This document shows, piece after piece, positions 1,503-64,000 of a DNA stretch of 64,000 bases. The DNA comes from a virus. Each line of letters begins with the position of its first letter. The first letter of the stretch is position 1. The notes under the pieces are model-generated. The model had not been told where the DNA came from. It was given only the letters and a program-made list of their open reading frames with translations, and searched no databases. The stretch spans positions 2,481-66,480 of IMG/VR virus record IMGVR_UViG_3300049027_000111; one strand, written 5' to 3'. The position numbers were made by a program, and so were the translations under genes.

Positions 1503-2546
1503 ATGGCCTTGGTCACCTTCGAGGGCTTTGATCAGTTCGACGACACCGGCCTGGGCACCCAGCTGTTGACCAAGGGCTGGGCGGCCATCGTCTCCCCCGC
1601 CGGCGCCGCCGGCCGGTACGGCGGCCGATGCTTCCGGCTCACCACCAACTCGGTCACCGCGCGCTACGATTTTGCCGCGGCCCTGGCGACGGCCACGGTC
1701 GGGCTGGCGTTCCAGAGCACCGCCACGAACGCCACGTCGTCCTCGATCGTGATCTTCACCGACTCCGGCACGACGGGCCAGTTCGGCCTGGGGCTTAACG
1801 CATCCAACAAGTTTTTCGTCTTTCGCGGCACGACGTCGACCGTGGTGGCGACCTCGGCCACCGGCCCGGTGGCTCTGCAGTGGTATTATCTGGAGTTCCA
1901 GGCGACGATCCACAACACCACCGGTGCCTACGAAGTAAAATTGAATGGAACGCAGCTCGCCGATCTGACCGCGACTGGCGTCAACACCCGCTCGACCGCC
2001 AACAACCAGACGACTGGGGTCTATCTGTCCAGCACCGCCAACCCGACCGGCTTCTTCTATTGCGACGACTTGTACATCACCGACACGACGGGCGGTTCGA
2101 ATACCGGATTTCTCGGCGAGGTCCGGGTGACGACCATCGTCCCGACCGGTGCCGGGGCCAGCACGCAGTTCACCCCGTCGACCGGCAGCAACTGGCAGAA
2201 CGTCGACGAGATCGGCACCAGCGGCACGGCGGCCGACACCGACTACAACAGCTCCAGCACGGCCGGGCACATCGACAGCTTCGCGATCAGCAGCAGTTCC
2301 ATTTCCGGCAGTCCGGCGGTCTATGCTGTAGCCTTGAGCGTCACCTGCCGGAAAGACGATGTCGGCGTCAGGACGATCCGGACGCGGCTGAAGTCCTCCG
2401 CGGCGATCAGCACCGGCACGACCTCGACCGTGCTGTCGAGCTACGGGACGTTCAGGACGGTGCATTTGGTCGACCCGAACACGACCGCGGCCTGGAGCGT
2501 CGCGGCGGTGAACGCGATGGAGATCGGCTACGAGCTGGTGAGCTAG
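1503..2546 (+). CDS. Virion structural protein, beta-sandwich/lectin-like
   Basis: MALVTFEGFD start 2 nt after the upstream stop. T/S/G-rich with 'WYYLEF...GAYEVKLNG...YCDDLYI', a pattern seen in phage minor tail proteins. Confidence 0.6.
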   Translation: MALVTFEGFDQFDDTGLGTQLLTKGWAAIVSPAGAAGRYGGRCFRLTTNSVTARYDFAAALATATVGLAFQSTATNATSSSIVIFTDSGTTGQFGLGLNASNKFFVFRGTTSTVVATSATGPVALQWYYLEFQATIHNTTGAYEVKLNGTQLADLTATGVNTRSTANNQTTGVYLSSTANPTGFFYCDDLYITDTTGGSNTGFLGEVRVTTIVPTGAGASTQFTPSTGSNWQNVDEIGTSGTAADTDYNSSSTAGHIDSFAISSSSISGSPAVYAVALSVTCRKDDVGVRTIRTRLKSSAAISTGTTSTVLSSYGTFRTVHLVDPNTTAAWSVAAVNAMEIGYELVS

Positions 2547-9973: not shown

Positions 9974-11269
9974 ATGAGCATCCTGCGTGAGCGGGCGTCG
10001 GCGCTGGCCGACGTCCTCGATCGGCATGCCCAGGCCAGCGCCGCCCTGATCGACGCGCAGCTCGCCGTGCATCGCGGCATCGAGCTGCTGGCCGAGGCGG
10101 TCGACCAGACCGAGGCCCAGGTGCAAGCCCTCAACGACCGCCTGGCGCAGCCGCCCGTCGCCAATGGTCCTTGGGGTCCTGGCGAGCGCTCGGGCCATCG
10201 GTGGTGGTCGGGCGTCGCCTTTCGCGGCACGATCCCGCCCTTGCTCGCCTTCGTCCAGGGCCCGCGCGCCGGGGTCAAGATTGACCTCGTCCAGGTGTTC
10301 AGCCCCGGCAACGCAGGCTTGAACGACAGCTGGGAGCACATCGCGGGCGGACCCGGCGACGACCCGACCAAGCTCGACGGCACGCTGACCATGACCCGCG
10401 GCAGCAAGCAGGCGGCGGTCATCTGGGCCGACCCGCTGGTCGGCGGCCTGCCGGTCGCCTACACCATCCGGCCGATCCCGAGCTGCGCCAGCAACGAGGA
10501 CGGCAAGAACCCGGCGGTGTGGGAGGAGATCGCCAAGGGCGAGCATGACAGCGTCTACCGCATGCTCGGGCGGCGCATGGCCCACCTCGACCAGAAGCAC
10601 AACCGCACGGCGCCGCTTATATTAGAAATTGGTCATGAGTGCAGCGGGGGGTGGTATCCACATAGCATTGAGGGTGCCTTGCCCGACGGGCGGTTCGTCT
10701 GGCAGATCTTCCCGGGCGCATGGGCCCGCATCGTCGAGGGCATCCGCCAGGGCTACCTGAGCCTCGGTGGCAAATACTGCCCCTATCTGTTTGTCTTCCG
10801 GCCGGCGCGCGGCGTGCTCGCGGGCGGCGTGCGCCTCGACCGCTACCTGCCGCCGCCGGGCACCTGGGACGCCATAGGCCTCAGCCAGCACGACAACGCG
10901 CCGATGTGCTCGGCGGCCAACCCGCGCGCCTGCTGGAGCCCGAGCGTCCGCAAGGACGGGACCGTGGAGATGGAAGGCCTCTTGCTGCTCGCCGAGATCG
11001 CCGACCGGCATCGGCGCGCCATCGCGATTTTCGAGTGGGCCGGCTACCCGCCGGACACCGCCACCGTCTATCCTGGCAACCCGGAGGGCGAGCGGTTCGT
11101 CGCGGCTTTCTGGGACTTTTGCCGGACCCATAGCCATTTGATCGCGGCCGAGTGCTACTTTGACAGGGGCGCGACGGGTTTTGCGGAGCGCCCGGACTGG
11201 TCGGCGTCCATCGCCTACCGGGCGCGTTGGGGCGCGCCGCAGGCCTGGGTGCCGGGTGCCGGTGCCTGA
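9974..11269 (+). CDS. GH26-like glycoside hydrolase with N-terminal coiled coil
   Basis: 'ILEIGHECSGGWYPH' (acid/base HE), 'WDAIGLSQHD', 'IAIFEWA' (nucleophile). Confidence 0.7.
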   Translation: MSILRERASALADVLDRHAQASAALIDAQLAVHRGIELLAEAVDQTEAQVQALNDRLAQPPVANGPWGPGERSGHRWWSGVAFRGTIPPLLAFVQGPRAGVKIDLVQVFSPGNAGLNDSWEHIAGGPGDDPTKLDGTLTMTRGSKQAAVIWADPLVGGLPVAYTIRPIPSCASNEDGKNPAVWEEIAKGEHDSVYRMLGRRMAHLDQKHNRTAPLILEIGHECSGGWYPHSIEGALPDGRFVWQIFPGAWARIVEGIRQGYLSLGGKYCPYLFVFRPARGVLAGGVRLDRYLPPPGTWDAIGLSQHDNAPMCSAANPRACWSPSVRKDGTVEMEGLLLLAEIADRHRRAIAIFEWAGYPPDTATVYPGNPEGERFVAAFWDFCRTHSHLIAAECYFDRGATGFAERPDWSASIAYRARWGAPQAWVPGAGA

Positions 11270-11385
11270 TACCGTCGCGATCCTTCTCGGTGTCTTGGTG
11301 GCTTGCGGGGCGGTGGCGATGGTCGCCTTCGTCAGCGCTGCGGTGATCCTGCTGCGGAGGGCGCGCGGGATCAGGAGGGGCAAGA

Positions 11386-11646
11386 ATGCCCGAGCGGACA
11401 ATGTTGCAGTTTCTAGCGAGGGTCGAGCTCGTCAACGCGGTCGCTGCCGTGGCGATGACCATCGGCTTGGTGGTCGCCTGCTTCCTGCTCGACGCGAGCT
11501 ATCGCCGGCTGGGGGTGATGCAGGCGCAGCTCGAGCAGCGCAACGCCTTGGGTGCTCGGGCGCTGGCCGAGCTGCAGCGACAGAGCGACCAAGGGGCGGA
11601 AAGCCTGAAGCTCCTGCTTGAGGCGGCGCGGCGCCTCGGGCGCTGA
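11386..11646 (+). CDS. Small membrane protein
   Basis: GGAGG RBS, one TM helix plus coiled coil. Confidence 0.5.
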   Translation: MPERTMLQFLARVELVNAVAAVAMTIGLVVACFLLDASYRRLGVMQAQLEQRNALGARALAELQRQSDQGAESLKLLLEAARRLGR

Positions 11647-11660
11647 CCCCCGCCGCGAAG

Positions 11661-12059
11661 GTGCTTATCGTTGAGGACGAGACGATTATCGCCCTGATCC
11701 TGGAGATGACCCTCACGGGGGCCGGGATCGAGGTGTGCGGCGTCGCCGGTTCCGAGGAGGAGGCCTTGCAGATGGCCGCGATCTGCGAGCCGACGCATGC
11801 CATCTGCGACGTGCGGCTCGCGCCCGGCGACGGCCTGACGGTGGCGCGCGAGCTGCAGGCAAGATACCACTGCGCGATCGTGTTCTCGACCGCCTACGCC
11901 CACGATGTCTGCCACAAGCCGGGCCTGCCGCCCGGTGTGTGCCTGGGCAAGCCCTACGACCCCGCGCTTCTGCTCGCGGCCCTGCTCGCCGCGCGCGAGA
12001 TCGCCGATGGCCAGCCGCCGTCGAAGCTGCCGCACGGGGCGGTGATCGTGGGGCCTTGA
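11661..12059 (+). CDS. Single-domain response regulator (REC)
   Basis: 'LIVEDE', phospho-Asp 'ICDVRL', 'VFSTAY', 'GKPY'. Confidence 0.85.
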   Translation: MLIVEDETIIALILEMTLTGAGIEVCGVAGSEEEALQMAAICEPTHAICDVRLAPGDGLTVARELQARYHCAIVFSTAYAHDVCHKPGLPPGVCLGKPYDPALLLAALLAAREIADGQPPSKLPHGAVIVGP

Positions 12060-12092
12060 GGGGCAAAGGCAGCCCCACGGCAGCCCGTCACG

Positions 12093-12130
12093 GAGCCCCG
12101 GCCGGAAGCCCCCGGCCGGGGCTCTTCGTG
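12093..12130 (+). terminator. GC-rich hairpin, probable terminator
   Basis: GAGCCCCGGCCGG...CCGGCCGGGGCTC then TTCGTGTT. Confidence 0.5.
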
Positions 12131-12164
12131 TTCTACGGGCGAAGCCTAAGACGGAGGAGCGAGC

Positions 12165-12401
12165 ATGGACGATCAACAGCCCACCGGCTGGCGCGACATC
12201 GAGACAGCACCGACAGACGGCACGCCGGTCTTGGTCTTTGCCCAGGACTTGCAGGAACCGCCGCCCGGTGTGGATGGCAAGCTGCCCTCCTTCCAGGCGG
12301 TGGCGAGCTACCACCCTGATGCCGGGTGGTGCGTCTGCGAGTTGCGCATGGCAACGCACTGGATACCGCTCCCCGAGCCACCGCCCGGGGCCAGCGCGTA
12401 G
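12165..12401 (+). CDS. DUF551-like phage protein
   Basis: 'WRDIETAPTDGTPVLV...ATHWIPLPEPP'. Confidence 0.8.
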   Translation: MDDQQPTGWRDIETAPTDGTPVLVFAQDLQEPPPGVDGKLPSFQAVASYHPDAGWCVCELRMATHWIPLPEPPPGASA

Positions 12402-12493
12402 ACCCGTCTCCTGCGGGCGAAGCACGCGGCAGGCCGCGCGGCACATTGCTGCAGTGCAGCATAAACCTCTGGGAAGGTCGGCGGCGCGTCCCC

Positions 12494-12847
12494 ATGTGGG
12501 AGATGAACCCGCACGGATTGATTGGACCCATGCCTCCCTTCCGCCACCGCGACCGACTGGAGCAGCGCCTGCTGGGCCTGGGCGAGCGCGTGGCGGAAGA
12601 GGATGTGCCCGAGGATCTGCGGTGGTTCACGTGGCGGCCGGAGACCCAGCGCCTCTACTGCTGGTCCTGGGCGGTGCGCGACGGCTGGCTCTGGGGCCGG
12701 CTGCACGATCAGGACGGCGAGGGCGGCGTATGGCGCGTGCCGATCTCCGGCGCGGTGCGGCAGGCGCTGCGGGCGATCGGCCGCCACTTGGGCGCGGGCA
12801 TCACCCTGGTCGCGGCGCGCGTCTGCCTGTCCGTCGCCGACGCCTGA
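12494..12847 (+). CDS. Hypothetical protein
   Basis: Trp-rich plausible ORF converging on the exonuclease gene. Start uncertain. Confidence 0.45.
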   Translation: MWEMNPHGLIGPMPPFRHRDRLEQRLLGLGERVAEEDVPEDLRWFTWRPETQRLYCWSWAVRDGWLWGRLHDQDGEGGVWRVPISGAVRQALRAIGRHLGAGITLVAARVCLSVADA

Positions 12848-12866
12848 CCGCTGCGGGCGAAGCCGC

Positions 12867-13457
12867 CTACGGCACCAGCCCACGGCGCGTGAGCTCGGCG
12901 AAGATGTCGGCGGCGGCCTGACAGTCCGACATGGCGTCGTGCGCCGTGCCCGGCATCGGCCGCCCGAGCAGGTGCTGGTAGCTCTCGCCGAGCTTGGGCG
13001 ACTTGAACCAGTCCCGGCCGGTGGCGAGCATGGCCTCGGTCGGCGGGATGGCGCACAGGTCGCGCGTCGCTGCCATGGTGCAGAAGGCCGGGAGGCTGTC
13101 CCAGTCGCGGACCAGCCGGCCCAGGGCGATGCGCAGGACCCGGCTGTCGAACGTCTCGTTGTGCGCGACGCGGACGTGCGCCTGCGCGGCCAGGGCCAGG
13201 AACCGCCCAAGCGCCTCCGCCTCCGGGATACCTTCCTCGAGCGCCCGCTCCATGCTGATGCCATGCACCCTCGAGGCCGCGGCCGGGATGATCCACCCCT
13301 GGGGACGGACGATCACGTCGAGCTCGTCGAGCTGGCGCCAGCCGCTGTCGAGCAGCAGCGCCGCGAGCTGGACCGGATGCGGCTGCGCCGGGTGATCGTC
13401 CGGGAGCTCGTCGCGCAGGAGGGCGTTGGTCTCTAGGTCATAGACCAGGACGGTCAC
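12867..13457 (-). CDS. DEDDh (DnaQ-like) 3'-5' exonuclease
   Basis: ExoI 'VYDLETN', ExoII 'VAHNETFD', ExoIII 'AHDAMSD'. GTGA coupling to the upstream gene. Confidence 0.9.
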   Translation of the reverse strand: MTVLVYDLETNALLRDELPDDHPAQPHPVQLAALLLDSGWRQLDELDVIVRPQGWIIPAAASRVHGISMERALEEGIPEAEALGRFLALAAQAHVRVAHNETFDSRVLRIALGRLVRDWDSLPAFCTMAATRDLCAIPPTEAMLATGRDWFKSPKLGESYQHLLGRPMPGTAHDAMSDCQAAADIFAELTRRGLVP

Positions 13458-13945
13458 GCCGGCCTCGCCAGGGCGGCCACCATCGCCTTGAGATCGACGA
13501 TCGGCGACACCGGAGCGCGGACGATCGCGTCGACCGATTTCCGGCTGGCCAGGGTCTCCACCGCGCTGGCGACCGCCACCACCGCCTGCTGCCGCGACTT
13601 GTCGACCGGCGGCAGGGCCTCGTAGTCGCGCACCGACAGGGTGATCCGTCGGGTCCGGCGGGCGGCGGAGCGCACCGAGGCCAGCGAGCGGCTGCCATGC
13701 ACCACCGTCTCGGTATCCTCGAGGGCCTTGAGGCCGACGCGGATGATGGTCCCGAACACCAGCTGGTGGTCCCGCATGACGATCCTGCGCGCCTGCGCCA
13801 GCCGCGACCGGCCCGGCTGGTCGGTCACGCTGAACCCGACCCGAAGGGCGATGTCGTCGTAGGTGGCCGTGGCGCCGATCGCCACCTGCCGCAGCAGATC
13901 GATCAGCATCCGGGTCTCGGGCTGCGGGACGGCGTTCACGGGCAT
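13454..13945 (-). CDS. Hypothetical protein, possible winged-helix N-terminus, candidate accessory of the array system
   Basis: AAGGA RBS directly after the last array tail. 'LIDLLRQ...TYDDIALRVG...SRLAQARR...VFGTIIRVGLK'. Confidence 0.65.
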   Translation of the reverse strand: MPVNAVPQPETRMLIDLLRQVAIGATATYDDIALRVGFSVTDQPGRSRLAQARRIVMRDHQLVFGTIIRVGLKALEDTETVVHGSRSLASVRSAARRTRRITLSVRDYEALPPVDKSRQQAVVAVASAVETLASRKSVDAIVRAPVSPIVDLKAMVAALARPA

Positions 13946-13960
13946 GTGGGGATCCTTGGT

Positions 13961-14700
13961 GAGAGGACGTTGCCTGGTGCTGAGGCGCGATGTGACGGGC
14001 TGCGCTGCGGCGCGGCGCCCTGGGGCGAGGAGCGCGGCGCTGTGGAAAGAGGACGTTGAGGTGAGGAACGCTGAGTTGAGGTGCGGCGCGTAAAGTAGCG
14101 GCACGTCGGGAAAGGGCTGGGAAGAGGACGTTGCGAGGCACGGCGCCGGGGCGCGGGGTGCCGGGTCGCGGAACGAGTTGGAGCGCGGCGCGAGGCTGCG
14201 GTGCCGCGGGAAGCTCGCTGTGGAAAAGAGGACGTTGCGGAACGGAGCGGCGCGCGAGGTAGCGTGGCGCTGAGCGAAGCAGAGGAGATTTGCGCAGCGG
14301 CGGAAAAGGGGTCGGAAACAGGACGTTGCGTTGTGCTGCGCCATGCGGCGAGGTGCTGCGGCGAGGCACGGTAAGGAGCGCTGCTGCGGCGCGGTGGTGT
14401 GGCGAGTGGCAGGCCGAGGCCTGCGAGCCCGAAGGCTCCTCGAGCGGCGGACGGGCTCGGGGAGGCCTCGGATGGGGACGTTGCCGGGAGAGGCGTAGAG
14501 TAGCGCGACAGGGAGAATCGCTGCGGTACGGTGCGACACTCGCCAAGGAAAAGAGGACGTTGCCGGGAGAGGCGTGGCATGACGGGTCGTGTGGATGCGG
14601 CGAGCCGAGCCGGGACGAGCGGACGTTGCGGCGCGGCACCATGCGGCGCGGGTCGTGAAGCGGCGTTTTGTGGTGCGGAGCTGCGCCAAGACGCGGAGCG
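13961..14700 (-). ncRNA. Pentamer-periodic array 1 (8 units), putative guide-RNA array
   Basis: GACGTTG (+) at 13966, 14052, 14127, 14231, 14322, 14477, 14556 and 14622, each preceded by a purine tract and followed by NN-G(C)G pentamers. The repeat structure is directly visible. RNA function is inferred. Confidence 0.8.
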
Positions 14701-14715
14701 GAACTCACCAGTCGA

Positions 14716-15276
14716 TCAGGCCCACGTGACCCGCTCGACCACGAACCTACCGTAGTAGCCGCCCTGTCGGGGACGGAACCGGCCGACCCCGACGAACGAG
14801 CCGGCCTCGCGCAGGTGCTCCTCGAACACCGGCGGGGTGACCGTCTCGTCCAAAATCACGAAGCTGGCCTCGACGACCCAGTCCTCGGGGATCTTCGGGA
14901 AGCAGCGCCAGACCCGCTTGCCGGAGCCGCGCACCCCGTTGGCGTGGACGTAGAGCCACTCCCCTTCGACCTCGTCCTTCCGCAGGCCGAGGGGCACGGG
15001 CTCGGTGCAGAGCAGCCCGGCCTCAAAGTGCTTGGTGTAGGTCGACTTGCCACGACCCGGGATCTGCCGGCCGGTCATCTTCGCGGCTTCCGACACCGAC
15101 CACTTCAAGGCCATCGGCGGGATGAACACGTTGCCCTTGCCGTCGAAGTGCAGCTTCTCGCGCCATGTCCGCTTCTCCCAGTCGTCGGGCCCCTCCTTCT
15201 CCAACCGGGGGGTGACGTGCATGCGGGATTGTGACATGGGCGAGACGCCGTGAAGGCGGGCGATGGCGGTTCTCAT
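14716..15276 (-). CDS. Stand-alone Cas7/RAMP-like protein (186 aa)
   Basis: GGAGGA RBS. N-terminal strand 'ARLHGVSPM', 'VFIPPMALK' (cf. RAMP 'IPGSSLKG'), terminal G-rich loop 'AGSFVGVGRFRPRQGGYYGRFVV'. Confidence 0.75.
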   Translation of the reverse strand: MRTAIARLHGVSPMSQSRMHVTPRLEKEGPDDWEKRTWREKLHFDGKGNVFIPPMALKWSVSEAAKMTGRQIPGRGKSTYTKHFEAGLLCTEPVPLGLRKDEVEGEWLYVHANGVRGSGKRVWRCFPKIPEDWVVEASFVILDETVTPPVFEEHLREAGSFVGVGRFRPRQGGYYGRFVVERVTWA

Positions 15277-15291
15277 GGGGGTCCTCCTGGC

Positions 15292-15580
15292 GGAAAAGAC
15301 GTTGGGTCGAGCTTCGTGGCGACGCGCAGCGCAAGGGCGGGGCGCGGGGCGTAACGGCGGGGAAAGGACGTTGAGTCGAAGGGCGACTTGGTTCGATGCG
15401 CGATGTGGAGAAGAGAAGAGTGGAGGGAACAAGAGAAGACGTTGAGTCGAGTCGCCTGGCGGCGCGGCTTGTTGCGCCAAGTTGCGCCACGGCGGGAAAG
15501 GGGTGGAAGAGAAGACGTTGGGTCGAGTCGCCTCGCGATGCGGCGCGGCAAGACGTGAAGCGAAGCGCAGCGCTGGGACA
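15292..15580 (-). ncRNA. Pentamer-periodic array 2 (4 units), putative guide-RNA array
   Basis: GACGTTG(A/G)GTCGA (+) at 15298, 15367, 15438 and 15514 with the same purine tract and 5-nt periodicity. Confidence 0.8.
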
Positions 15581-15588
15581 GGGTTCGC

Positions 15589-17247
15589 TCATGCCGCCTC
15601 CTGCCGCTTGCCGACCTCGACCAGACGGTCCTCGACCAGCCGCCAGGTCGGCACCCCGGCGGCCTGCAGCCGCTCGGCCGCAGCCGCGGGCGCCGTGAGC
15701 AGGAGCAGGGTCGGCACGCCCGAGGCCCGCACCGCCGCCAGCACCCCGTTGCGGTTGCGGGTGTCGAGCACGTCGAGCCCGTCGAGGATGCACAGCGCCG
15801 ATCCATCGGCGCGGGCGACCGCCAGGGCGAGGAGCGCGTCCACCAGCCACTGCTCCGACTGCGCCAGGGCCTCGGCCGCCGCGTCACCGTAAGCGATGCC
15901 AAGGTCATCGGGCTGGACCTTGACCATCGGGCAGCTCGCCCGCCCGCACAGCTCGGCCAAGCTGTCGTTGAGCGCCCCGAGCCGGTCGCCGAGCTTGGCC
16001 TGCCGCGCCCCGGTCGGGTCGGCGAGGTCGGCGAGACGGAGCAGCGTGTCGAGCTCGTGGTGCAGCCACCACGCCTCGGCCTTGGTCCGGCGCTCGGCCA
16101 TGGCGGCCTCCAACGCGGCCAGCCGCTGCTCGGCGGCGGCCAGCCGGCCCTCGTCCGCGGGCGGCTCTTGCGCCAGAAGCCCGGCGGCGCGTTCCGCCTC
16201 CTCGACCTGGGACCGCAGATCCTTGGCCTGGACCAGCAGCTCGCGTGCGGCGGCGAACGCAGCCTCGGCCTTGCCCTTCCATGCTTCGCCGGTCTTCTTG
16301 TCGACCGTCGCCGCCCGGGTCGGCTTGCGCACCGGATCCGGTGTCTCCGGCCACAGCTCGACCAGCGCGGCGCAGTGCGGGCACTTGCCCCGAACCCGGG
16401 CGAACGCGACCGACTGCAGCTTGTCGCGCCAGCCCTCGGCCTCGCGACGGCGCTCCTCGAATTCCCCATCGATCGCCGAGCAGGCTGCGCGCCGGGCGTC
16501 CAGGGTCTCGGCCAGCCGCTCAAGCCGCGCCCGCTCGTGGGCATCGACCGCCCCGACCTTCAGAGCGGCATCACGCTCAGCCGTCGCCTGCGCCAGCTGG
16601 GCCGCGAGCTCATCGGCGGCCTGCTGCCGCGCGGCGCCGTCCTCGGGCCCGAGATAGCGCTCGGCCGCCCGGCGGCCCCAGGCGCTGCCCGTGAGCTGCT
16701 GCCAGGCACCCTTGCGCTCGCGGGCGCGGTCGCGCAGCTGCACCGCCGCCGCGTCCCAGCCGTGTCGCCGGATCATCGCCCACGCCCCGGCGACGGCCGC
16801 GTCGTCCTCGATGCCGAGGAAGCGGCACGCCCCGATCCATTCCTGCTGGTCGGGCTCGCCACCGAGCGCTGCCGTGAGCGCCGCCGCGCGCTCGGCCGGC
16901 GGCAGGCGGGCCGGACGGATCAGACCCGTGGCGATCCCCGAGGCCTCGGGCGGCTCGCCCGACAGCTCCATCTGCCCCTCCGGCCAGACGATCCGCACCG
17001 AGCCCTGGCTGGTGAGCAGGTGCGCCTGGGCGGTGTCGCTCGCCGGGCCGACCAGCGAGGCGCGCTGCCTGGCGCTGAGCCCGAGCCGCGAGCTGCGGCA
17101 CAAGACGGCGGCCGCGATCAGGGCCAGGGTCGACTTGCCGGCACCGTTGGGGCCGACCACCACGGTGAGCTCGCCGAGCGGCAGCTGGACGTCGCTCAGG
17201 GTGCGGCAGTTGTCGGCGCACAAGACCATCTGCCCGGCGGCGGCCAT
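15589..17247 (-). CDS. Rad50/SbcC-like ABC ATPase
   Basis: Walker A GPNGAGKS, coiled coils with CPHC hook, degenerate signature LAQSE, Walker B 'CILDGLD'. Confidence 0.8.
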   Translation of the reverse strand: MAAAGQMVLCADNCRTLSDVQLPLGELTVVVGPNGAGKSTLALIAAAVLCRSSRLGLSARQRASLVGPASDTAQAHLLTSQGSVRIVWPEGQMELSGEPPEASGIATGLIRPARLPPAERAAALTAALGGEPDQQEWIGACRFLGIEDDAAVAGAWAMIRRHGWDAAAVQLRDRARERKGAWQQLTGSAWGRRAAERYLGPEDGAARQQAADELAAQLAQATAERDAALKVGAVDAHERARLERLAETLDARRAACSAIDGEFEERRREAEGWRDKLQSVAFARVRGKCPHCAALVELWPETPDPVRKPTRAATVDKKTGEAWKGKAEAAFAAARELLVQAKDLRSQVEEAERAAGLLAQEPPADEGRLAAAEQRLAALEAAMAERRTKAEAWWLHHELDTLLRLADLADPTGARQAKLGDRLGALNDSLAELCGRASCPMVKVQPDDLGIAYGDAAAEALAQSEQWLVDALLALAVARADGSALCILDGLDVLDTRNRNGVLAAVRASGVPTLLLLTAPAAAAERLQAAGVPTWRLVEDRLVEVGKRQEAA

Positions 17248-17248
17248 G

Positions 17249-18160
17249 TCACTCGTCCGCGAAGGCCGGCGGCGGGCTGGCGGCAGCGGCGGGGGCCGGC
17301 TGCTCCTGCGCCGCGGCGGGCGGTGGCTCGGGCTCGGGCGGCGACGGCTCGGGATCGGGATCCGGCACCGGCACCGGACGGCCGGGAGCGGGCAGGCTCA
17401 CCATGTCGGGCGAGGCGTCCACGGTCTCGCGCCCACCGTCGTCGAGGTCCCTGAGCGCGTCCGGGTCCTCGAGCGGCAGGCGCTTGCACAGGCGCTTGAG
17501 GCAAACCTTTCTCGCCATCTCGTCGGGGAAATTCTTCCAGGCGGGCGAGTTCTTCGACGGCGCAAGCTCGCGTATCTTCTCAATCTCCGCCCGCTCCATG
17601 AGCTCGATCTCGGGCGTGTCGACGCCCGTCACGACCGCGACGGCGTAGACCGCCAGCCAGTCGCCCCGGCCGCTGATCGGCACCTCGTGCTCGATGCTTT
17701 CGTCGGTGCCGAGCCGGATGCGGCAGCGGTCGTTCTCGCGGACGACGTGCGCGCTGACCTTCTTGACCAGTTGGCTGCGGCGCACGAGGGTCAGGGCCCC
17801 GCGGTAGTCCAAGCTCTCCTGCACCTGCCCTTTGAAGGGGAGCAGGTGGTAGCCACCTGCGCCGATCGGCAGGCCCGTCTTCGCCACGCGCTTGACGGCG
17901 CGCAGGAGCGAGGCCCGATCGGCGTTGAGCAGGTCGTTGTTGTCGCGCACCGCGGTGACGAGCAGCTCGCAGAGCCGTTCGATGTAGCCGGTGGTGCGCT
18001 GCTCGCGCGGCACGGTCGCGGCGAGGCTCTCGCGAAATTGCCGGCCGTCGACCTGCAACCGGAGCTGCTGGAAGGCCTGCTGCGCCGGGCTCGGCGGACG
18101 GACCTGCGCCGGGCTCGAGCCGCGCGGCTGGGCGAGCGGGACACGCTGCGGGTCGGTCAT
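17249..18160 (-). CDS. recT: RecT-family ssDNA annealing protein
   Basis: 'GYHLLPFKG...LDYRG...VSAHVVREND', 'WKNFPDEMARKVCLKRLCKRLP'. Confidence 0.85.
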   Translation of the reverse strand: MTDPQRVPLAQPRGSSPAQVRPPSPAQQAFQQLRLQVDGRQFRESLAATVPREQRTTGYIERLCELLVTAVRDNNDLLNADRASLLRAVKRVAKTGLPIGAGGYHLLPFKGQVQESLDYRGALTLVRRSQLVKKVSAHVVRENDRCRIRLGTDESIEHEVPISGRGDWLAVYAVAVVTGVDTPEIELMERAEIEKIRELAPSKNSPAWKNFPDEMARKVCLKRLCKRLPLEDPDALRDLDDGGRETVDASPDMVSLPAPGRPVPVPDPDPEPSPPEPEPPPAAAQEQPAPAAAASPPPAFADE

Positions 18161-19017
18161 GCGATCTCCTGATAGGTCGCGGGGCAGGCCTTCGAGCCCC
18201 AAAGCCTGCAGTACTTCGCCGAGCACAAAAGACTGGACGGGTTCGGCAGGAACCGGCTCGGATCGCCATCGCGCTGGAAGTCCAGGGCTTTGGCCCCGAA
18301 GTCCTTCAGCACCGCATCAGCGATCTTCTCGGCCTCGACGATGCCGATCGGCTGCTGCTCCACGGACGGCTGGGGCTTCTGCTCCTTCACCCTCTGGATG
18401 AAGTCGACCTGGCAACCGTCGACCGCATGGCCGCGCGTGCGCAGGAGCAGCGTGTAGGCCCCGAGCTGTGGCGCGTGCCTCCAGGCGCTCATCCGGCGCC
18501 GGCCGGTCTTGGAGTCGTGCAGGATCGTGCGCCCGCCCTTCTCGGCATCGAGGGCGACGAGATCGCTCTGGCCGGAGATCACCAGCCCGGGCACCGCTTC
18601 CGCCTCCAGCCGGCGCTCGACCGCCACCGGTCGCACGCGGGGCACGATGTCCCGGCGGTAGGTGCGGACCATCCGGCGCACCTGACCCTCGGCGGCGTTC
18701 CTCGAGGGTGTGTCATCATCCATGATGACGGGCTGGTCGCCGACATCCTCCGCCCACCGCTGCCGGAAGGCGCTGATGCCGGCGTCCTCGAGCACGTCGT
18801 CGGGCGACGGGCTGCCGCCGAGCAGGAGCTCGGTCAGCGCCAGCTCCGCCCCGCCGTGAACGCCGCTGCCGACGAGCGCGCCCACGTTCGCGCGCCGTGG
18901 GGCCATGGCGTGACCGTGCTCGGCGAACAGGTGCGGGAAGGCGTGGCCGGCGGCGCGCAATTGACAGTCGGTGAACGTGCTCAAGCTTGAAGCGCGGATG
19001 ATCAGCGGCGGGCTCAC
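18157..19017 (-). CDS. PD-(D/E)XK nuclease (RecB/Cas4-like, RecE partner)
   Basis: 'IRASSL...C', 'SGQSDL', 'HDSKTG', 'QLGAY', C-terminal 'CSAKYC...C'. Confidence 0.85.
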   Translation of the reverse strand: MSPPLIIRASSLSTFTDCQLRAAGHAFPHLFAEHGHAMAPRRANVGALVGSGVHGGAELALTELLLGGSPSPDDVLEDAGISAFRQRWAEDVGDQPVIMDDDTPSRNAAEGQVRRMVRTYRRDIVPRVRPVAVERRLEAEAVPGLVISGQSDLVALDAEKGGRTILHDSKTGRRRMSAWRHAPQLGAYTLLLRTRGHAVDGCQVDFIQRVKEQKPQPSVEQQPIGIVEAEKIADAVLKDFGAKALDFQRDGDPSRFLPNPSSLLCSAKYCRLWGSKACPATYQEIA

Positions 19018-19226
19018 GCCCAGCGCCACCAGCGCCACCAGGACCGGGTCGCGAGCTCCAGCCGGCGCTCGAGATAGCGCACCTCCCGCCGCAGCCGCGC
19101 CGCCTCGTCGATCGCCTCCTCGCGCTGCCGCTCGGCGCTCTGCAGCAGCTCCTCGAGCGCCAGGATGCGCGAGGACGGGCAGACGGTGATCCGGTCAGCG
19201 TCCGAGGTCTTGCGATCCGACCACAT
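19014..19226 (-). CDS. Small coiled-coil protein, first gene of the leftward operon
   Basis: Strong GGAGGAGGT RBS, ends 'RSWWRWWRWA'. Confidence 0.6.
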   Translation of the reverse strand: MWSDRKTSDADRITVCPSSRILALEELLQSAERQREEAIDEAARLRREVRYLERRLELATRSWWRWWRWA

Positions 19227-20330: not shown

Positions 20331-20536
20331 TCGATCCCGACGACCCGGGCCCCGATGTCACGCTCGCCGAGCTCCTGCGCCGCACGCAGGTGCTGCCGGA
20401 GGAGCAGCTGCTGCGCGAGAGGGCCCACCACAGCAACGCTGCCGTGAAGAGCGCCGTCAGCAGGCGGACGCACGCCAAGCTGCGGCGGCTGGGCAAGCTC
20501 GACTTCAGCAGGAGGGTCGAGCCATGCCGGTCGTGA
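20327..20536 (+). CDS. Hypothetical protein
   Basis: ATGA-coupled 69-aa ORF. Confidence 0.45.
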   Translation: MIDPDDPGPDVTLAELLRRTQVLPEEQLLRERAHHSNAAVKSAVSRRTHAKLRRLGKLDFSRRVEPCRS

Positions 20537-21324
20537 CCACCCGCGGCAGGCCGCGTCCCACCGATCCCGGCCTCGCGCCGCCCGACGTGGTCAAGCGCTG
20601 CCTCGACAAGATCGGCTTGGTGCCACGTGGCGTGCGCGCCAACAATCCCGGTAACCTTGAGCGCGGCAAGAAACCATGGGTCGGTGAAGTAAACGACGGT
20701 CGAGAGCCCAGGTTCGCCCAGTTCAAGACGCCTGAGGATGGTATCCGCGCCATCGGTGTCTGCGTCATGACTTATGTCGACCACCGCAAGGCCAATGACG
20801 GCTCGGCCATCGACAGCGTCGATGACATCATCAACCGGTGGGCGCCAAGTCACGAGAACGACACGCGCGCCTACGCGGCGCATGTCGCCGCGCTCCTCAA
20901 GGTCGATCCGTTCGAGAAGGTCAACTTCTACGCTTGGGACAACATCCGGGCGCTGACCTGTGGACTGATCGAGCATGAAAATGGACTTAACCCATACTCG
21001 GACACGACGATCGACACGGGCCTGCTCAAGGCCGGCTTCAAGCGCCCGGCCGCGACCGTCACGGCCGAGCGCACCACCGACCGGATGATCTCCGCCGCGG
21101 GGGTCGCCGCTGGCGGCGGGGCCGCCGTGCTCAGCACCGTGGTCGCCGTGCTGCCGGCCGTCACCGAGGCCTACAAGCAGGCCACCACCTCCTCGAGCGC
21201 CTTGGCCGAGATCGCGCCCTGGCTGCCGATTGCTTTCGGCGTCCTCGCCGCCGGCACCGTCGTCGTCCTGACCGTCCGCAACGCGCGGCTCGCGCGCCTG
21301 GTCGACGGGAGATCGCCGCCATGA
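20524..21324 (+). CDS. Lysozyme-like muramidase (probable endolysin) with two C-terminal hydrophobic helices
   Basis: 'RGVRANNPGNL', 'FKTPEDGIRA', 'IINRWAPSHENDTRAY', 'IEHENG'. Confidence 0.8.
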   Translation: MPVVTTRGRPRPTDPGLAPPDVVKRCLDKIGLVPRGVRANNPGNLERGKKPWVGEVNDGREPRFAQFKTPEDGIRAIGVCVMTYVDHRKANDGSAIDSVDDIINRWAPSHENDTRAYAAHVAALLKVDPFEKVNFYAWDNIRALTCGLIEHENGLNPYSDTTIDTGLLKAGFKRPAATVTAERTTDRMISAAGVAAGGGAAVLSTVVAVLPAVTEAYKQATTSSSALAEIAPWLPIAFGVLAAGTVVVLTVRNARLARLVDGRSPP

Positions 21325-34957: not shown

Positions 34958-35826
34958 GCTTGGGGCGAGCGACGCCTGTTGGTGGGCGGGAGGCCGCGGT
35001 GGCGTTGTCCGATGGCGTGGGCGTGGACGAGGTGCTGCGGCGACTGGAGCCGCAGGTTTGGCGGGGCTGGCGCTACTGGGGCGGCGCGCGGCCGGAGCCT
35101 TTGACGGCGGCCTCGCCGTTGTGGGACCTGCGATATTTAGGTGTCGGCTACCGGGTGCTGAAGCGGGCCGGCTTTCACCGGCTTGGCCAGCTGTGCGCGG
35201 TGTCGGAGCGTCAGCTTCTGTCGCTGAAGGGCTTTGGCGGCGTGGGGCTGCTGGAGCTCAAGGAGGCGTTGGCCTGGCACGGCTTCGCGTTGTCGGCCAC
35301 GGACGGCCCGATGCCTTCGGCGGAGGAGCGGGTAGGGTTGGCGACGCCGCTGGGGTGGTTCGACGATGTCGATGCGGCCTCGGTGGCGCAGCTGCGCCAG
35401 GCCGGCTGCGTGACGGTGGGTGATTTTCTCGCCCGGACGACGAGCAGCTTGCTGGGCACGGGCGTGGTGGAGCCGCGGTCGATCAACGACGTCGATGGCA
35501 CCTTGGGCCTGCACTACGGCCTGCACCGGGTGACGGAGCGGCGGGTTCCGCGAGTTCTGCCGCGGCCGCGGCCGCCTTTGAACCAGGCGGCGTTGGCGCG
35601 TGCGGCGCAGGCGTGGCGGTCGAGCAACGGGCATGAGCCGGACCTGCGGGCGCTGGAGGCGGCGATCCGGGCGTTCGCGAGCAGCAGCGGCGGCAGGGAG
35701 TGCATCGGTCCGGACGAGCGGCGTTACCGAAGCCTGACGGTGGCGGCGCGGTCGGCGGGTGTGGAGCCATCGACGATGCATCGCTGGGTGACGCGTCGCC
35801 TTCACGGCTGGCGCCCGGCCCCCTGA
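34954..35826 (+). CDS. Protein with RNA polymerase alpha-CTD-like domain(s) and C-terminal HTH
   Basis: 'YRVLKRAGFHRLGQL...SERQLLSLKGFG..GLLELKEAL...GFAL', with a second degenerate copy 'AQLRQAGCVTVGDFL'. Confidence 0.7.
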   Translation: MSLGRATPVGGREAAVALSDGVGVDEVLRRLEPQVWRGWRYWGGARPEPLTAASPLWDLRYLGVGYRVLKRAGFHRLGQLCAVSERQLLSLKGFGGVGLLELKEALAWHGFALSATDGPMPSAEERVGLATPLGWFDDVDAASVAQLRQAGCVTVGDFLARTTSSLLGTGVVEPRSINDVDGTLGLHYGLHRVTERRVPRVLPRPRPPLNQAALARAAQAWRSSNGHEPDLRALEAAIRAFASSSGGRECIGPDERRYRSLTVAARSAGVEPSTMHRWVTRRLHGWRPAP

Positions 35827-63651: not shown

Positions 63652-64000
63652 TGCCGGAGATCAAGGAGATCCTGACGCCGGACCAGATCCGGCAGCTGAA
63701 GCTCGACCTCGAGCAGCTGAAGAGCGACGGCTACGGCGAGGCGGAGCTGCGCGACTACGTCAAAGGCTTCAAGGACGGGTTCGTCAGCAACAGCCCGGTC
63801 GGGCTGGCGGGCAACTTCGCCAACGGCCTGCTGCTCGGCTACGGCGACGAGGCCAAGGGCGGCTTGCGCAGCCTGTTCTCGGGCCAGTCGCGCCTCTACG
63901 AGACCGCGCGCGCCCGCGCGCAGATCAGCCGCTCGCGCCAGGCGCATCCCGTGGCCAGCCTGGGCGCGGAGGTCGCCGGCGCCACGACGGCGGGCAACAT
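63651..64000 (+). CDS. Large internal virion protein, 5' part (truncated by the window end)
   Basis: TGATG-coupled, MPEIKEILTP..., 'ANGLLLGYGDE', open to the window end. Confidence 0.65.
   Translation, partial: MPEIKEILTPDQIRQLKLDLEQLKSDGYGEAELRDYVKGFKDGFVSNSPVGLAGNFANGLLLGYGDEAKGGLRSLFSGQSRLYETARARAQISRSRQAHPVASLGAEVAGATTAGN

What the first reader, a model, noticed from the sequence alone, without database searches (positions are those of the whole stretch)
13966..14700. Strict 5-nt register with information confined to dinucleotides
SEEN (+ strand, after GACG): unit 13970-14044 = ttGCC tgGTG ctGAG gcGCG atGTG acGGG ctGCG ctGCG gcGCG gcGCC ctGGG gcGAG gaGCG cgGCG ctGTG (G at position 3 in 15/15, at position 5 in 13/15). 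Unit 14056-14110 = ttGAG gtGAG gaACG ctGAG ttGAG gtGCG gcGCG taAAG taGCG gcACG tcGGG (position-5 G in 11/11). The register is anchored to the tail in all 12 units while the dinucleotides differ, which neither a codon frame nor a microsatellite explains. INFERENCE: if one target base is skipped per dinucleotide (NNx), the first unit reads as codon positions 1-2 of roughly L-A-(I/M)-T-L-L-A-A-L-A-(D/E)-R-L and the 14235 unit as (D/E)-(D/E)-A-R-Y-(W/C)-L-R-(Q/H)-(D/E). That would be a wobble-insensitive address. This reading is speculative.
Basis: partly seen in the sequence, partly recalled or inferred. Interest (0 to 1): 0.85.

Follow-up and report, generated by a model that had tools for sequence, protein, structure and literature searches.

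The report
Phage VIPR guide-RNA arrays, C-N-Y repeats
The strict five-base pattern is a set of twelve guide RNAs of a phage VIPR system, a CRISPR-like RNA-guided DNA silencer first described in 2026, so it is a real but already explained kind of element with an unusual repeat spelling.

Summary
Twelve units in strict 5-nt register fill two intergenic gaps (13946-14715 and 15277-15588). They flank a 186-aa gene in the early leftward operon of an uncultured soil phage.

On the gene (minus) strand each unit is 9-16 variable pentamers of C-N-Y + NN. Every unit is closed by an invariant CAACGTC and a pyrimidine tail.

The 186-aa protein is a Vipr. Its only PDB sequence match is SUSP1 Vipr (profile E 2.5e-8), and its model has a Cas7/Csm3 fold. 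A winged-helix-like 163-aa partner gene sits beside vipr in 73 of 80 related viral loci. In 71 of those 80 loci, 5-nt arrays flank the gene.

This is therefore a VIPR system (bioRxiv 2026).

I could not show that rule here: no target was found. Natural variants do place 8 of 12 array SNPs at NN positions, and one variant has lost exactly two units.

The scan has found VIPR loci on other DNA before. Verdict: a new member of a known kind with a non-canonical C-N-Y triplet. Non-canonical triplets are already in print.

The parts
15277..15588 (-). vrRNA array B, upstream of vipr: 4 units (B1-B4)
   Evidence: Anchors at 15514, 15438, 15367 and 15298. Minus-strand pentamers C-N-Y+NN closed by CAACGTC.
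15502..15587 (-). unit B1 (approximate span: repeats plus tail)
   Evidence: 14 pentamers, tail CAACGTCTTCTC.
15426..15496 (-). unit B2 (approximate)
15355..15420 (-). unit B3 (approximate)
15286..15356 (-). unit B4 (approximate); its tail runs into the ribosome-binding site of vipr
14716..15276 (-). vipr: 186-aa Cas7-like RAMP protein
   Evidence: phmmer against PDB: the only hit is SUSP1 Vipr 36pp_D, E 0.0031. Profile of 40 relatives: E 2.5e-8. AF2 model pLDDT 93.4. Foldseek top hits are type VII Cas7 and Csm3, E 5.6e-8. phrog_4652.
13946..14715 (-). vrRNA array A, downstream of vipr: 8 units (A1-A8)
   Evidence: Anchors at 14622, 14556, 14477, 14322, 14231, 14127, 14052 and 13966.
14610..14700 (-). 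unit A1 (approximate)
   Evidence: 15 pentamers.
14544..14619 (-). unit A2 (approximate)
   Evidence: It shares a 21-nt exact 3' end with A3 (family D11).
14465..14535 (-). unit A3 (approximate)
   Evidence: Absent together with A4 in one natural variant.
14410..14471 (-). long hairpin between the A3 tail and the A4 repeats; role unknown
   Evidence: strand folding on 14385-14480 (minus strand): -40.4 kcal/mol, z -2.15, 1 of 200 shuffles as good.
14310..14380 (-). unit A4 (approximate)
14219..14305 (-). unit A5 (approximate)
14115..14215 (-). unit A6 (approximate), the longest guide (16 variable dinucleotides)
14040..14110 (-). unit A7 (approximate)
13954..14044 (-). unit A8 (approximate); its tail runs into the ribosome-binding site of the 163-aa gene
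13454..13945 (-). 163-aa accessory gene (vap-like): winged-helix-like N-terminal domain plus a helical hairpin
   Evidence: A family member lies on the same strand beside vipr in 73 of 80 related loci (profile search). AF2 pLDDT 89.2. Fold matches are weak: winged-helix proteins, best Foldseek E 0.027; VIA Z 8.4 to the NSE1 winged helix and 7.1 to PurR.

Best explanation
This is a phage-borne VIPR system: a vipr gene, a small winged-helix-like accessory gene and twelve guide RNAs (vrRNAs). The vrRNAs are read from the minus strand, with the operon. Each consists of 9-16 pentamers of a fixed triplet (here C-N-Y instead of the canonical G-G-Y) followed by two free bases. Each ends in a conserved 3' handle, (triplet)AA-CGUC plus a pyrimidine run.

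By analogy with the solved SUSP1 complex, one Vipr protomer binds each triplet and flips it out. That gives the strict 5-nt register and leaves the NN bases stacked for pairing. The filament then binds double-stranded DNA whose sequence matches NN-x-NN-x..., skipping every third base, and silences transcription of a competing phage, satellite or prophage.

Shown here: the anatomy, the homology and fold of the protein, the conserved gene pair, the recurrence of the arrays in relatives, and the hypervariability of NN. Inferred from the family: transcription and processing of the units, binding by Vipr, the 1-nt skip rule and the targets.
For: Protein. The only PDB sequence match of the 186-aa protein is SUSP1 Vipr (E 0.0031; profile of 40 relatives E 2.5e-8). 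The match covers the G-loop: GVGRFRPR here against GVGDWRPR, with the arginine that holds Y3 in SUSP1 invariant in 40 of 40 relatives (paper .720927 section 5). The AF2 model (pLDDT 93.4) matches Cas7/Csm3 backbone subunits (Foldseek E 5.6e-8, prob 1.00).

RNA. There are 12 units of pentamers with C 89% / N / Y 91% and near-uniform NN. CAACGTC is invariant in 12 of 12 units.

Strand. In relatives with the canonical triplet, GGC-NN reads on the gene strand and ends in (GGCAA)n-GGT/A plus a T-rich tail, which is the same layout as here.

Recurrence. 71 of 80 related viral loci have at least 20 in-register pentamers within 2.6 kb of the gene. 73 of 80 have the 163-aa family next to it.

Population. 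In contigs from four soil or rhizosphere runs, 8 of 12 array SNPs are at NN and 1 is at the free middle base. The 3 at fixed positions either restore or keep C/Y. One contig has 10 differences in 283 nt of array against 2 in 461 nt of vipr. Another contig lacks exactly units A3 and A4, joined within the conserved anchor.

Codon test. NN composition fits codon positions 1-2 of this phage's genes better than positions 2-3 or 3-1: -545.7 against -588.9 and -608.5 bits, with 11 of 12 guides agreeing.
Against: The canonical GGY triplet is absent. The residues that read G1 and G2 in SUSP1 (D177, R138) align with R166 and F126 here, so the way the triplet is read is not the solved one. The tail is short and pyrimidine-rich, and I did not find or test a pseudoknot. 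The codon-position result beats a uniform model by only about 10 bits. It mostly reflects NN being 58-61% GC against 91% at codon position 3. The type (I-VII) cannot be assigned, because the type logos are in figures and supplements that I could not see.
Confidence: 0.9

Rival explanations
1. The arrays are periodic protein-binding RNA without guide function. As in TRAP binding to (G/U)AG repeats, the protein would recognise only the triplets. The dinucleotides would be free spacers, and the RNA would act as a scaffold, sponge or regulator of the flanking genes.
For: The fixed triplet with two free bases is formally what a spacer model predicts. No target was found. The tails abut the ribosome-binding sites of both downstream genes.
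Against: The protein is a homologue of Vipr, for which guide function of NN was shown by reprogramming (paper .720920, Results). Twelve different units per phage and unit-wise gain or loss fit a guide repertoire better than a scaffold.
Confidence: 0.05
2. The arrays act at the DNA level, for example as a loading or pairing site for the neighbouring RecT/exonuclease/ATPase recombination proteins or another DNA-binding filament with a 5-bp step.
For: The arrays lie inside an exonuclease-RecT-ATPase module.
Against: RecT accompanies the gene in only 1 of 80 related loci, and the exonuclease and ATPase in none (tblastn). The arrays travel with vipr and the 163-aa gene.
Confidence: 0.02
3. The arrays are a decaying pentanucleotide microsatellite with no function.
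For: Some short stretches look like simple repeats (CTGCG CTGCG).
Against: The register is anchored to an invariant tail in 12 of 12 units. The fixed positions are held while NN is near uniform. Natural variants change fixed positions only towards or within the consensus. The same architecture recurs at 35-68% GC with other triplets.
Confidence: 0.01

Closest known systems
Type II VIPR system of Escherichia phage SUSP1 (Vipr + vap1 + four vrRNAs; PDB 36pp; bioRxiv 10.64898/2026.04.26.720920 and .720927)
   Same: A small RAMP protein with a G-loop. Intergenic arrays on both sides of vipr. vrRNAs of 9-16 pentamers (fixed triplet + NN) with a constant 3' tail. A small predicted DNA-binding accessory gene. 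Carried by a phage.
   Different: The triplet is C-N-Y, not G-G-Y. Sequence similarity is confined to the C-terminal half (37 bits with a profile). D177 and R138 of SUSP1 align with R166 and F126. The tail is short and pyrimidine-rich, with no pseudoknot shown. There are 12 guides instead of 4. Expression, binding and targets were not shown here.
Divergent VIPR arrays with non-canonical repeats (GAC/NN, CAC/NN, WGT/NN, TGH/NN; bioRxiv 10.64898/2026.10.21.760802, passages read)
   Same: 5-nt arrays with a fixed triplet other than GGY, next to a Vipr-like fold. The branch sampled here shows GGC, CGC, GAC, GTC, CTC and C-N-C.
   Different: I could not see that paper's figure S10, so I cannot say whether C-N-Y or this branch is among its 21 clusters.
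Cas7 backbone of class 1 CRISPR effectors (Csm3, Cmr4, type VII Cas7)
   Same: The same fold. One protomer per fixed step of the guide, with a thumb that breaks the duplex periodically.
   Different: The step is 5 nt with 3 bases flipped, instead of 6 nt with 1. There is no cas operon, no CRISPR repeat-spacer array and no adaptation genes in the window.
TRAP (MtrB) binding sites in Bacillus trp leaders: 11 (G/U)AG triplets with 2-3-nt spacers (recalled, not from a call)
   Same: A triplet plus a two-base spacer gives a 5-nt period caused by one protein subunit per repeat.
   Different: There is no TRAP homologue here. The spacing here is strictly 2. In VIPR the spacer bases are the functional read-out, not filler.

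Membership tests
VIPR system | Vipr protein: minimal RAMP (RRM core, thumb, C-terminal glycine-rich loop) related to the described Vipr | tested here: met
   Only PDB hit is SUSP1 Vipr: E 0.0031 alone, 2.5e-8 as a profile. Model pLDDT 93.4. Cas7/Csm3 fold, E 5.6e-8.
VIPR system | vrRNA: tandem pentamers with a fixed triplet alternating with hypervariable NN, 9-16 repeats | tested here: met
   12 units with 9-16 variable dinucleotides each. NN is near uniform and the triplet is constrained.
VIPR system | Canonical triplet G-G-Y | tested here: not met
   The triplet is C 89% / N (G 51%) / Y 91%. The papers allow 'a related consensus' and report non-canonical triplets next to Vipr-like folds (.720920 Results and section 20.760802 passages), so this does not exclude membership.
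VIPR system | Invariable 3' tail after the repeat tract | tested here: met
   CAACGTC is invariant in 12 of 12 units and is followed by a pyrimidine run. Relatives have the same layout.
VIPR system | Structured tail (pseudoknot in the SUSP1 clade) | not tested
   The tail is only about 15-20 nt before the next unit. I ran no fold or covariation test on it.
VIPR system | Accessory vap gene beside vipr | tested here: inconclusive
   A conserved 163-aa partner is present in 73 of 80 relatives and has a winged-helix-like fold at weak scores. Identity with vap1-6 could not be checked: no vap sequence was at hand, and PDB gave no match.
VIPR system | Carried by a phage or provirus | tested here: met
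   IMG/VR virus record of 66,480 b with portal, scaffold, tail and RecT genes.
VIPR system | vrRNAs are expressed as about 100-nt RNAs and co-purify with Vipr | not testable with these tools
   No RNA run is listed for this DNA.
VIPR system | Targets match NN under the 1-nt skip rule | tested here: inconclusive
   Seeds for 7 of 12 guides gave only chance-like hits whose flanks do not extend. No skip length stood out in local scans.
CRISPR array | Direct repeats of about 28-37 nt alternating with contiguous spacers, with cas genes nearby | tested here: not met
   The constant part is about 16-20 nt and the units are 66-155 nt of 5-nt periodic sequence. The neighbours examined (9 ORFs, 9974-19194) include no cas gene other than the lone RAMP.
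TRAP-type attenuator | (G/U)AG triplets bound by an MtrB ring, in the leader of a regulated operon | tested here: not met
   The flanking proteins gave no such family in Pfam or PHROGs. The triplet on the RNA strand is C-N-Y.

The most novel reading that the evidence does not exclude
Within this one branch of Vipr proteins the fixed triplet has been re-specified several times (GGC, CGC, GAC, GTC, CTC, C-N-C), and changes at two RNA-contacting positions go with it. Residue 166 in the G-loop is R in 28 of 28 distinct GGC proteins and non-R in 5 of 5 GAC proteins. Residue 126 is Y in 9 of 11 proteins whose triplet starts with C. If real, this is a natural set of orthogonal protein-handle pairs. 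It could be driven by the need to escape hijacking by competitors' solo vrRNAs, and the C-N-Y form here would be one with a relaxed middle base.
Probability: 0.25. Interest if true: 0.55.

Novelty: new member of a known kind. Interest (0 to 1): 0.3.

Why it matters
The finding adds a soil-phage VIPR locus with twelve guides and a pyrimidine-type (C-N-Y) handle to a family known mainly from enterobacterial and Pseudomonas phages.

It gives population evidence that guides evolve faster than the effector gene, and that arrays gain or lose whole units by recombination in the conserved handle.

The branch-wide link between the triplet spelling and two Vipr residues is a testable lead for how the handle is read. 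It could also guide the making of orthogonal VIPR tools.

The system itself is not a new kind.

Tried and rejected
Known RNA families and cultured phages. Rfam on 12000-17000 gave only a chance match (SNORA77, E 0.88). blastn of 12800-15700 against cultured phages found no match. tblastn of the Vipr protein against them found 1 record at 33% identity.

Host. A portal-protein scan of genome contigs found no relative. The portal is at most 36% identical to podophages of Sinorhizobium, Rhizobium, Sulfitobacter and others. The host stays unknown.

Anchor-plus-period pattern in IMG/VR. It returned 120 single matches, which I did not analyse further and treat as uninformative.

Target search.
- I ran exact seeds of 9 dinucleotides under the 1-nt skip rule in IMG/VR for guides A8, A1, A5, A6, B1 and A3. 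They gave 1, 0, 4, 0, 3 and 0 stretches.
- I ran 10-dinucleotide seeds in metagenome contigs (A1, 2 stretches) and in genome contigs (A8, 3 stretches from three phyla).
- In every hit the flanking dinucleotides matched at chance level or little above it. Five guides were not seeded at all.
- Exact seeds miss imperfect targets, so this gives no verdict on targets or on the skip rule.
- Self-targeting: the best matches in the phage's own genome are no better than shuffled guides at any skip length from 0 to 3.
- All against all: 289 automatically called guide tracts from the 80 loci (79 related loci plus the phage's own genome), scanned against 1.8 Mb of fetched loci. No skip length was enriched. 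The 12 manual guides against the same set gave nothing beyond the seeded loci.

Expression. No RNA holder is listed for this DNA.

Promoter scan. No sigma-70-like site in 13400-15700, and two weak terminator-like sites, as expected by chance.

Other period-5 stretches in the window (2400-2460, 35155-35210, 20517-20582, 63884-63939). Only one phase is constrained and there is no tail, so I read them as chance within coding sequence.

Covariation on a tree. There are 5 changes of each trait on the best tree, but only 2 independent pairs on well-supported branches. The sign test cannot reach significance, so this stays a lead.

Supplements of the VIPR papers (type logos, locus tables) were closed. 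They may show whether this branch and this triplet are already catalogued.

I first considered a TRAP-like or RecT-filament reading, before the earlier notes and the paper search pointed to VIPR.

Full report
**What is there**

The window is part of an IMG/VR virus record of 66,480 bases. It carries portal, scaffold, tail and tail-spike genes.

Around the finding, all genes run leftward:
- a PD-(D/E)XK exonuclease (18157-19194);
- RecT (17249-18226);
- an SMC/ABC-like ATPase (15589-17247);
- a 312-nt gap;
- a 186-aa gene (14716-15276, phrog_4652);
- a 770-nt gap;
- a 163-aa gene (13454-13945);
- a DnaQ-like exonuclease (12867-13451).

The two gaps hold the periodic sequence.

**Check of the observation**

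Printed in pentamers after each GACG, the plus strand reads nnGnG for 11-20 steps in each of 12 units. Eight units lie in 13946-14715 and four in 15277-15588.

The signal is local and specific to period 5. The anchor motif is far above chance: 12 matches against 2.01 expected.

**Which strand, and what the unit is**

Read on the gene (minus) strand, every unit is a run of pentamers C-N-Y + NN that ends in (triplet)AA-CGTC followed by a pyrimidine run. CAACGTC is invariant in 12 of 12 units.

Over 170 pentamers:
- position 1 is C in 89%;
- position 2 is G 51, T 25, C 15, A 9%;
- position 3 is a pyrimidine in 91%;
- positions 4 and 5 are near uniform.

After dropping tail-derived pentamers and the constant AA, the guides have 9-16 variable dinucleotides.

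**Relatives**

A scan of IMG/VR with the 186-aa protein returned 80 loci at 51-61% identity, with 34-68% GC.
- 71 of the 80 have at least 20 in-register pentamers within 2.6 kb of the gene, on the gene strand.
- Examples: CGC-NN in L065, GAC-NN in L086 and RGY-NN in L010, each closed by a tail.
- With the window's own locus included (72 loci), the triplet calls are GGC 39, CGC 10, GAC 6, GnC 5, GTC 3, CnC 2 and seven singletons.
- In the GGC loci the canonical G-G-Y + NN reads on the gene strand and ends in (GGCAA)n-GGT/A plus a T-rich tail. This fixes the RNA strand here by homology of layout.
- A profile of the 163-aa protein finds a member on the same strand beside the gene in 73 of 80 loci. 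Five of the other seven loci are cut off on the side where the gene would lie (two just downstream of vipr, three upstream where their siblings carry it).
- RecT is a neighbour in 1 of 80. The exonucleases and the ATPase are neighbours in none.
- The mobile unit is therefore the gene pair plus the arrays, inserted here into a recombination module.

**What the proteins are**

The 186-aa protein has one match among PDB sequences, the SUSP1 Vipr protein: E 0.0031 alone and 2.5e-8 as a profile of 40 relatives. The match runs over the thumb-to-G-loop half. Its AF2 model (pLDDT 93.4) matches Cas7-type backbone subunits (type VII Cas7, Csm3, Cmr4; E 5.6e-8).

The 163-aa protein models well (pLDDT 89.2) as an N-terminal winged-helix-like domain plus a helical hairpin. 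The fold matches are only middling, and Pfam has no family for it.

**Comparison with what is known**

In 10.64898/2026.04.26.720920 I read the Results, methods sections 20 and 26, and some passages. VIPR loci are a vipr RAMP gene, a vap gene and vrRNAs of 9-16 YNNGG repeats with a constant 3' tail. The NN bases specify a DNA target in which one base is skipped per dinucleotide. Most top matches lie in coding sequence with the skip at the wobble position.

In .720927 I read sections 5 and 6. One Vipr protomer binds per repeat. G1 is read by H17 and D177, G2 by R138 and W178, and Y3 sits in a pocket with R179.

In 10.64898/2026.10.15.759431 I read the abstract and passages. It explains the skip as matching codon periodicity, so that synonymous changes cannot escape.

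In 10.64898/2026.10.21.760802 I read passages only. It reports 21 clusters of 5-nt arrays with non-canonical triplets (for example GAC/NN and CAC/NN) beside Vipr-like folds.

The locus here meets the architectural and protein criteria. It departs in the triplet:
- D177 aligns with R166 and R138 with F126;
- R179 aligns with the invariant R168, in line with a kept pyrimidine at position 3 and changed positions 1-2.

This residue-to-base link is my inference.

The NNx reading with a wobble-insensitive skip is the published VIPR rule. I could not demonstrate it on this locus.
- Exact seeds for 7 of 12 guides in IMG/VR, JGI metagenomes and GTDB genomes gave only hits whose flanks fail to extend.
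- Local mismatch-tolerant scans showed no preferred skip length.
- As an indirect test, I scored the 139 guide dinucleotides against the dinucleotide use of this phage's genes. Codon positions 1-2 give -545.7 bits, positions 2-3 give -588.9, positions 3-1 give -608.5 and a uniform model -556. Eleven of 12 guides prefer positions 1-2.
- This is consistent with the rule but weak, since it mainly reflects NN being 58-61% GC against 91% at position 3.

**Population evidence**

The stretch is held by 20 listed runs from 17 studies of soil and rhizosphere metagenomes. Two of the runs are flagged as possible sources, and none is RNA.

I laid contigs of four runs on it:
- One 2,864-nt contig joins 14319 to 14554, with 10 letters fitting both sides. 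It therefore lacks exactly units A4 and A3, with the joint in the conserved anchor.
- Twelve single-base differences fall in the arrays. Eight are at NN positions and one at the free middle base. Three are at fixed positions: A to C restoring Y, G to C restoring C1, and C to U keeping Y.
- One contig differs at 10 of 283 array positions but at only 2 of 461 positions of vipr.
- With 40% expected at NN, 8 of 12 gives about p = 0.06 by my own binomial sum, and the changes are linked in a few haplotypes. The direction is as the guide model predicts, but the statistics are thin.

**A lead beyond the finding**

Among 58 distinct proteins of the branch:
- residue 166 is R in 28 of 28 GGC-type proteins, but F, F, Y, S or A in the 5 GAC-type proteins;
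- residue 126 is Y in 9 of 11 proteins whose triplet starts with C. This phage and L013 keep F.

On a weakly resolved tree each trait changes about five times. Only two independent pairs sit on supported branches, so the association is not significant.

**Verdict**

This is a genuine VIPR locus, confidence about 0.9. The kind is known from 2026 preprints and has been met repeatedly by this scan on other DNA.

It is a new member with a C-N-Y handle, twelve guides and population-level unit turnover. It is not a new kind of system.

Noticed in passing
window 14319-14554: A natural variant (one 2,864-nt contig of run X9) lacks exactly 234 nt, which is units A4 and A3 plus the hairpin between them. 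The joint lies in the 10-nt conserved anchor, so the array gains or loses whole units by recombination between handles.
   Followed up: partly
window 14410-14471 (-): A long GC-rich hairpin (-40.4 kcal/mol, z -2.15) sits between the tail of A3 and the repeats of A4. It is the only non-periodic insert in the arrays, and its role is unknown (processing signal, terminator without a U run, or remnant).
   Followed up: partly
L009-L088 (Vipr residues 126 and 166 in this window's numbering): The triplet spelling tracks two Vipr residues across the branch. R166 goes with a middle G (28/28) and non-R with a middle A (5/5). Y126 goes with a first C (9/11). The association is not significant on a weakly supported tree.
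   Followed up: partly
window 14476-14496 and 14555-14575: Units A3 and A2 share an exact 21-nt 3' end (repeat family D11). The four units of array B share a longer constant 3' end (GA-CTCGA-CYCAA-CGTC). This suggests recent duplication of unit ends or an extended handle.
   Followed up: no
window 12867-13451 (-): The DnaQ-like DEDDh exonuclease gene starts two bases after the end of the 163-aa gene. No related locus has it next to vipr (0 of 80), so it is probably this phage's own replication or recombination gene, not part of the system.
   Followed up: partly
window 11661-12059 (+): A stand-alone response-regulator receiver domain gene (Pfam Response_reg, E 1.1e-10) lies on the opposite strand next to the early operon of this phage.
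   Followed up: no
window 13400-15700: The phage stretch is held by 20 listed public runs from 17 studies of soil and rhizosphere metagenomes (two flagged as possible sources), so the phage is widespread in such habitats. Its host is unknown, and its portal is at most 36% identical to cultured phages.
   Followed up: partly
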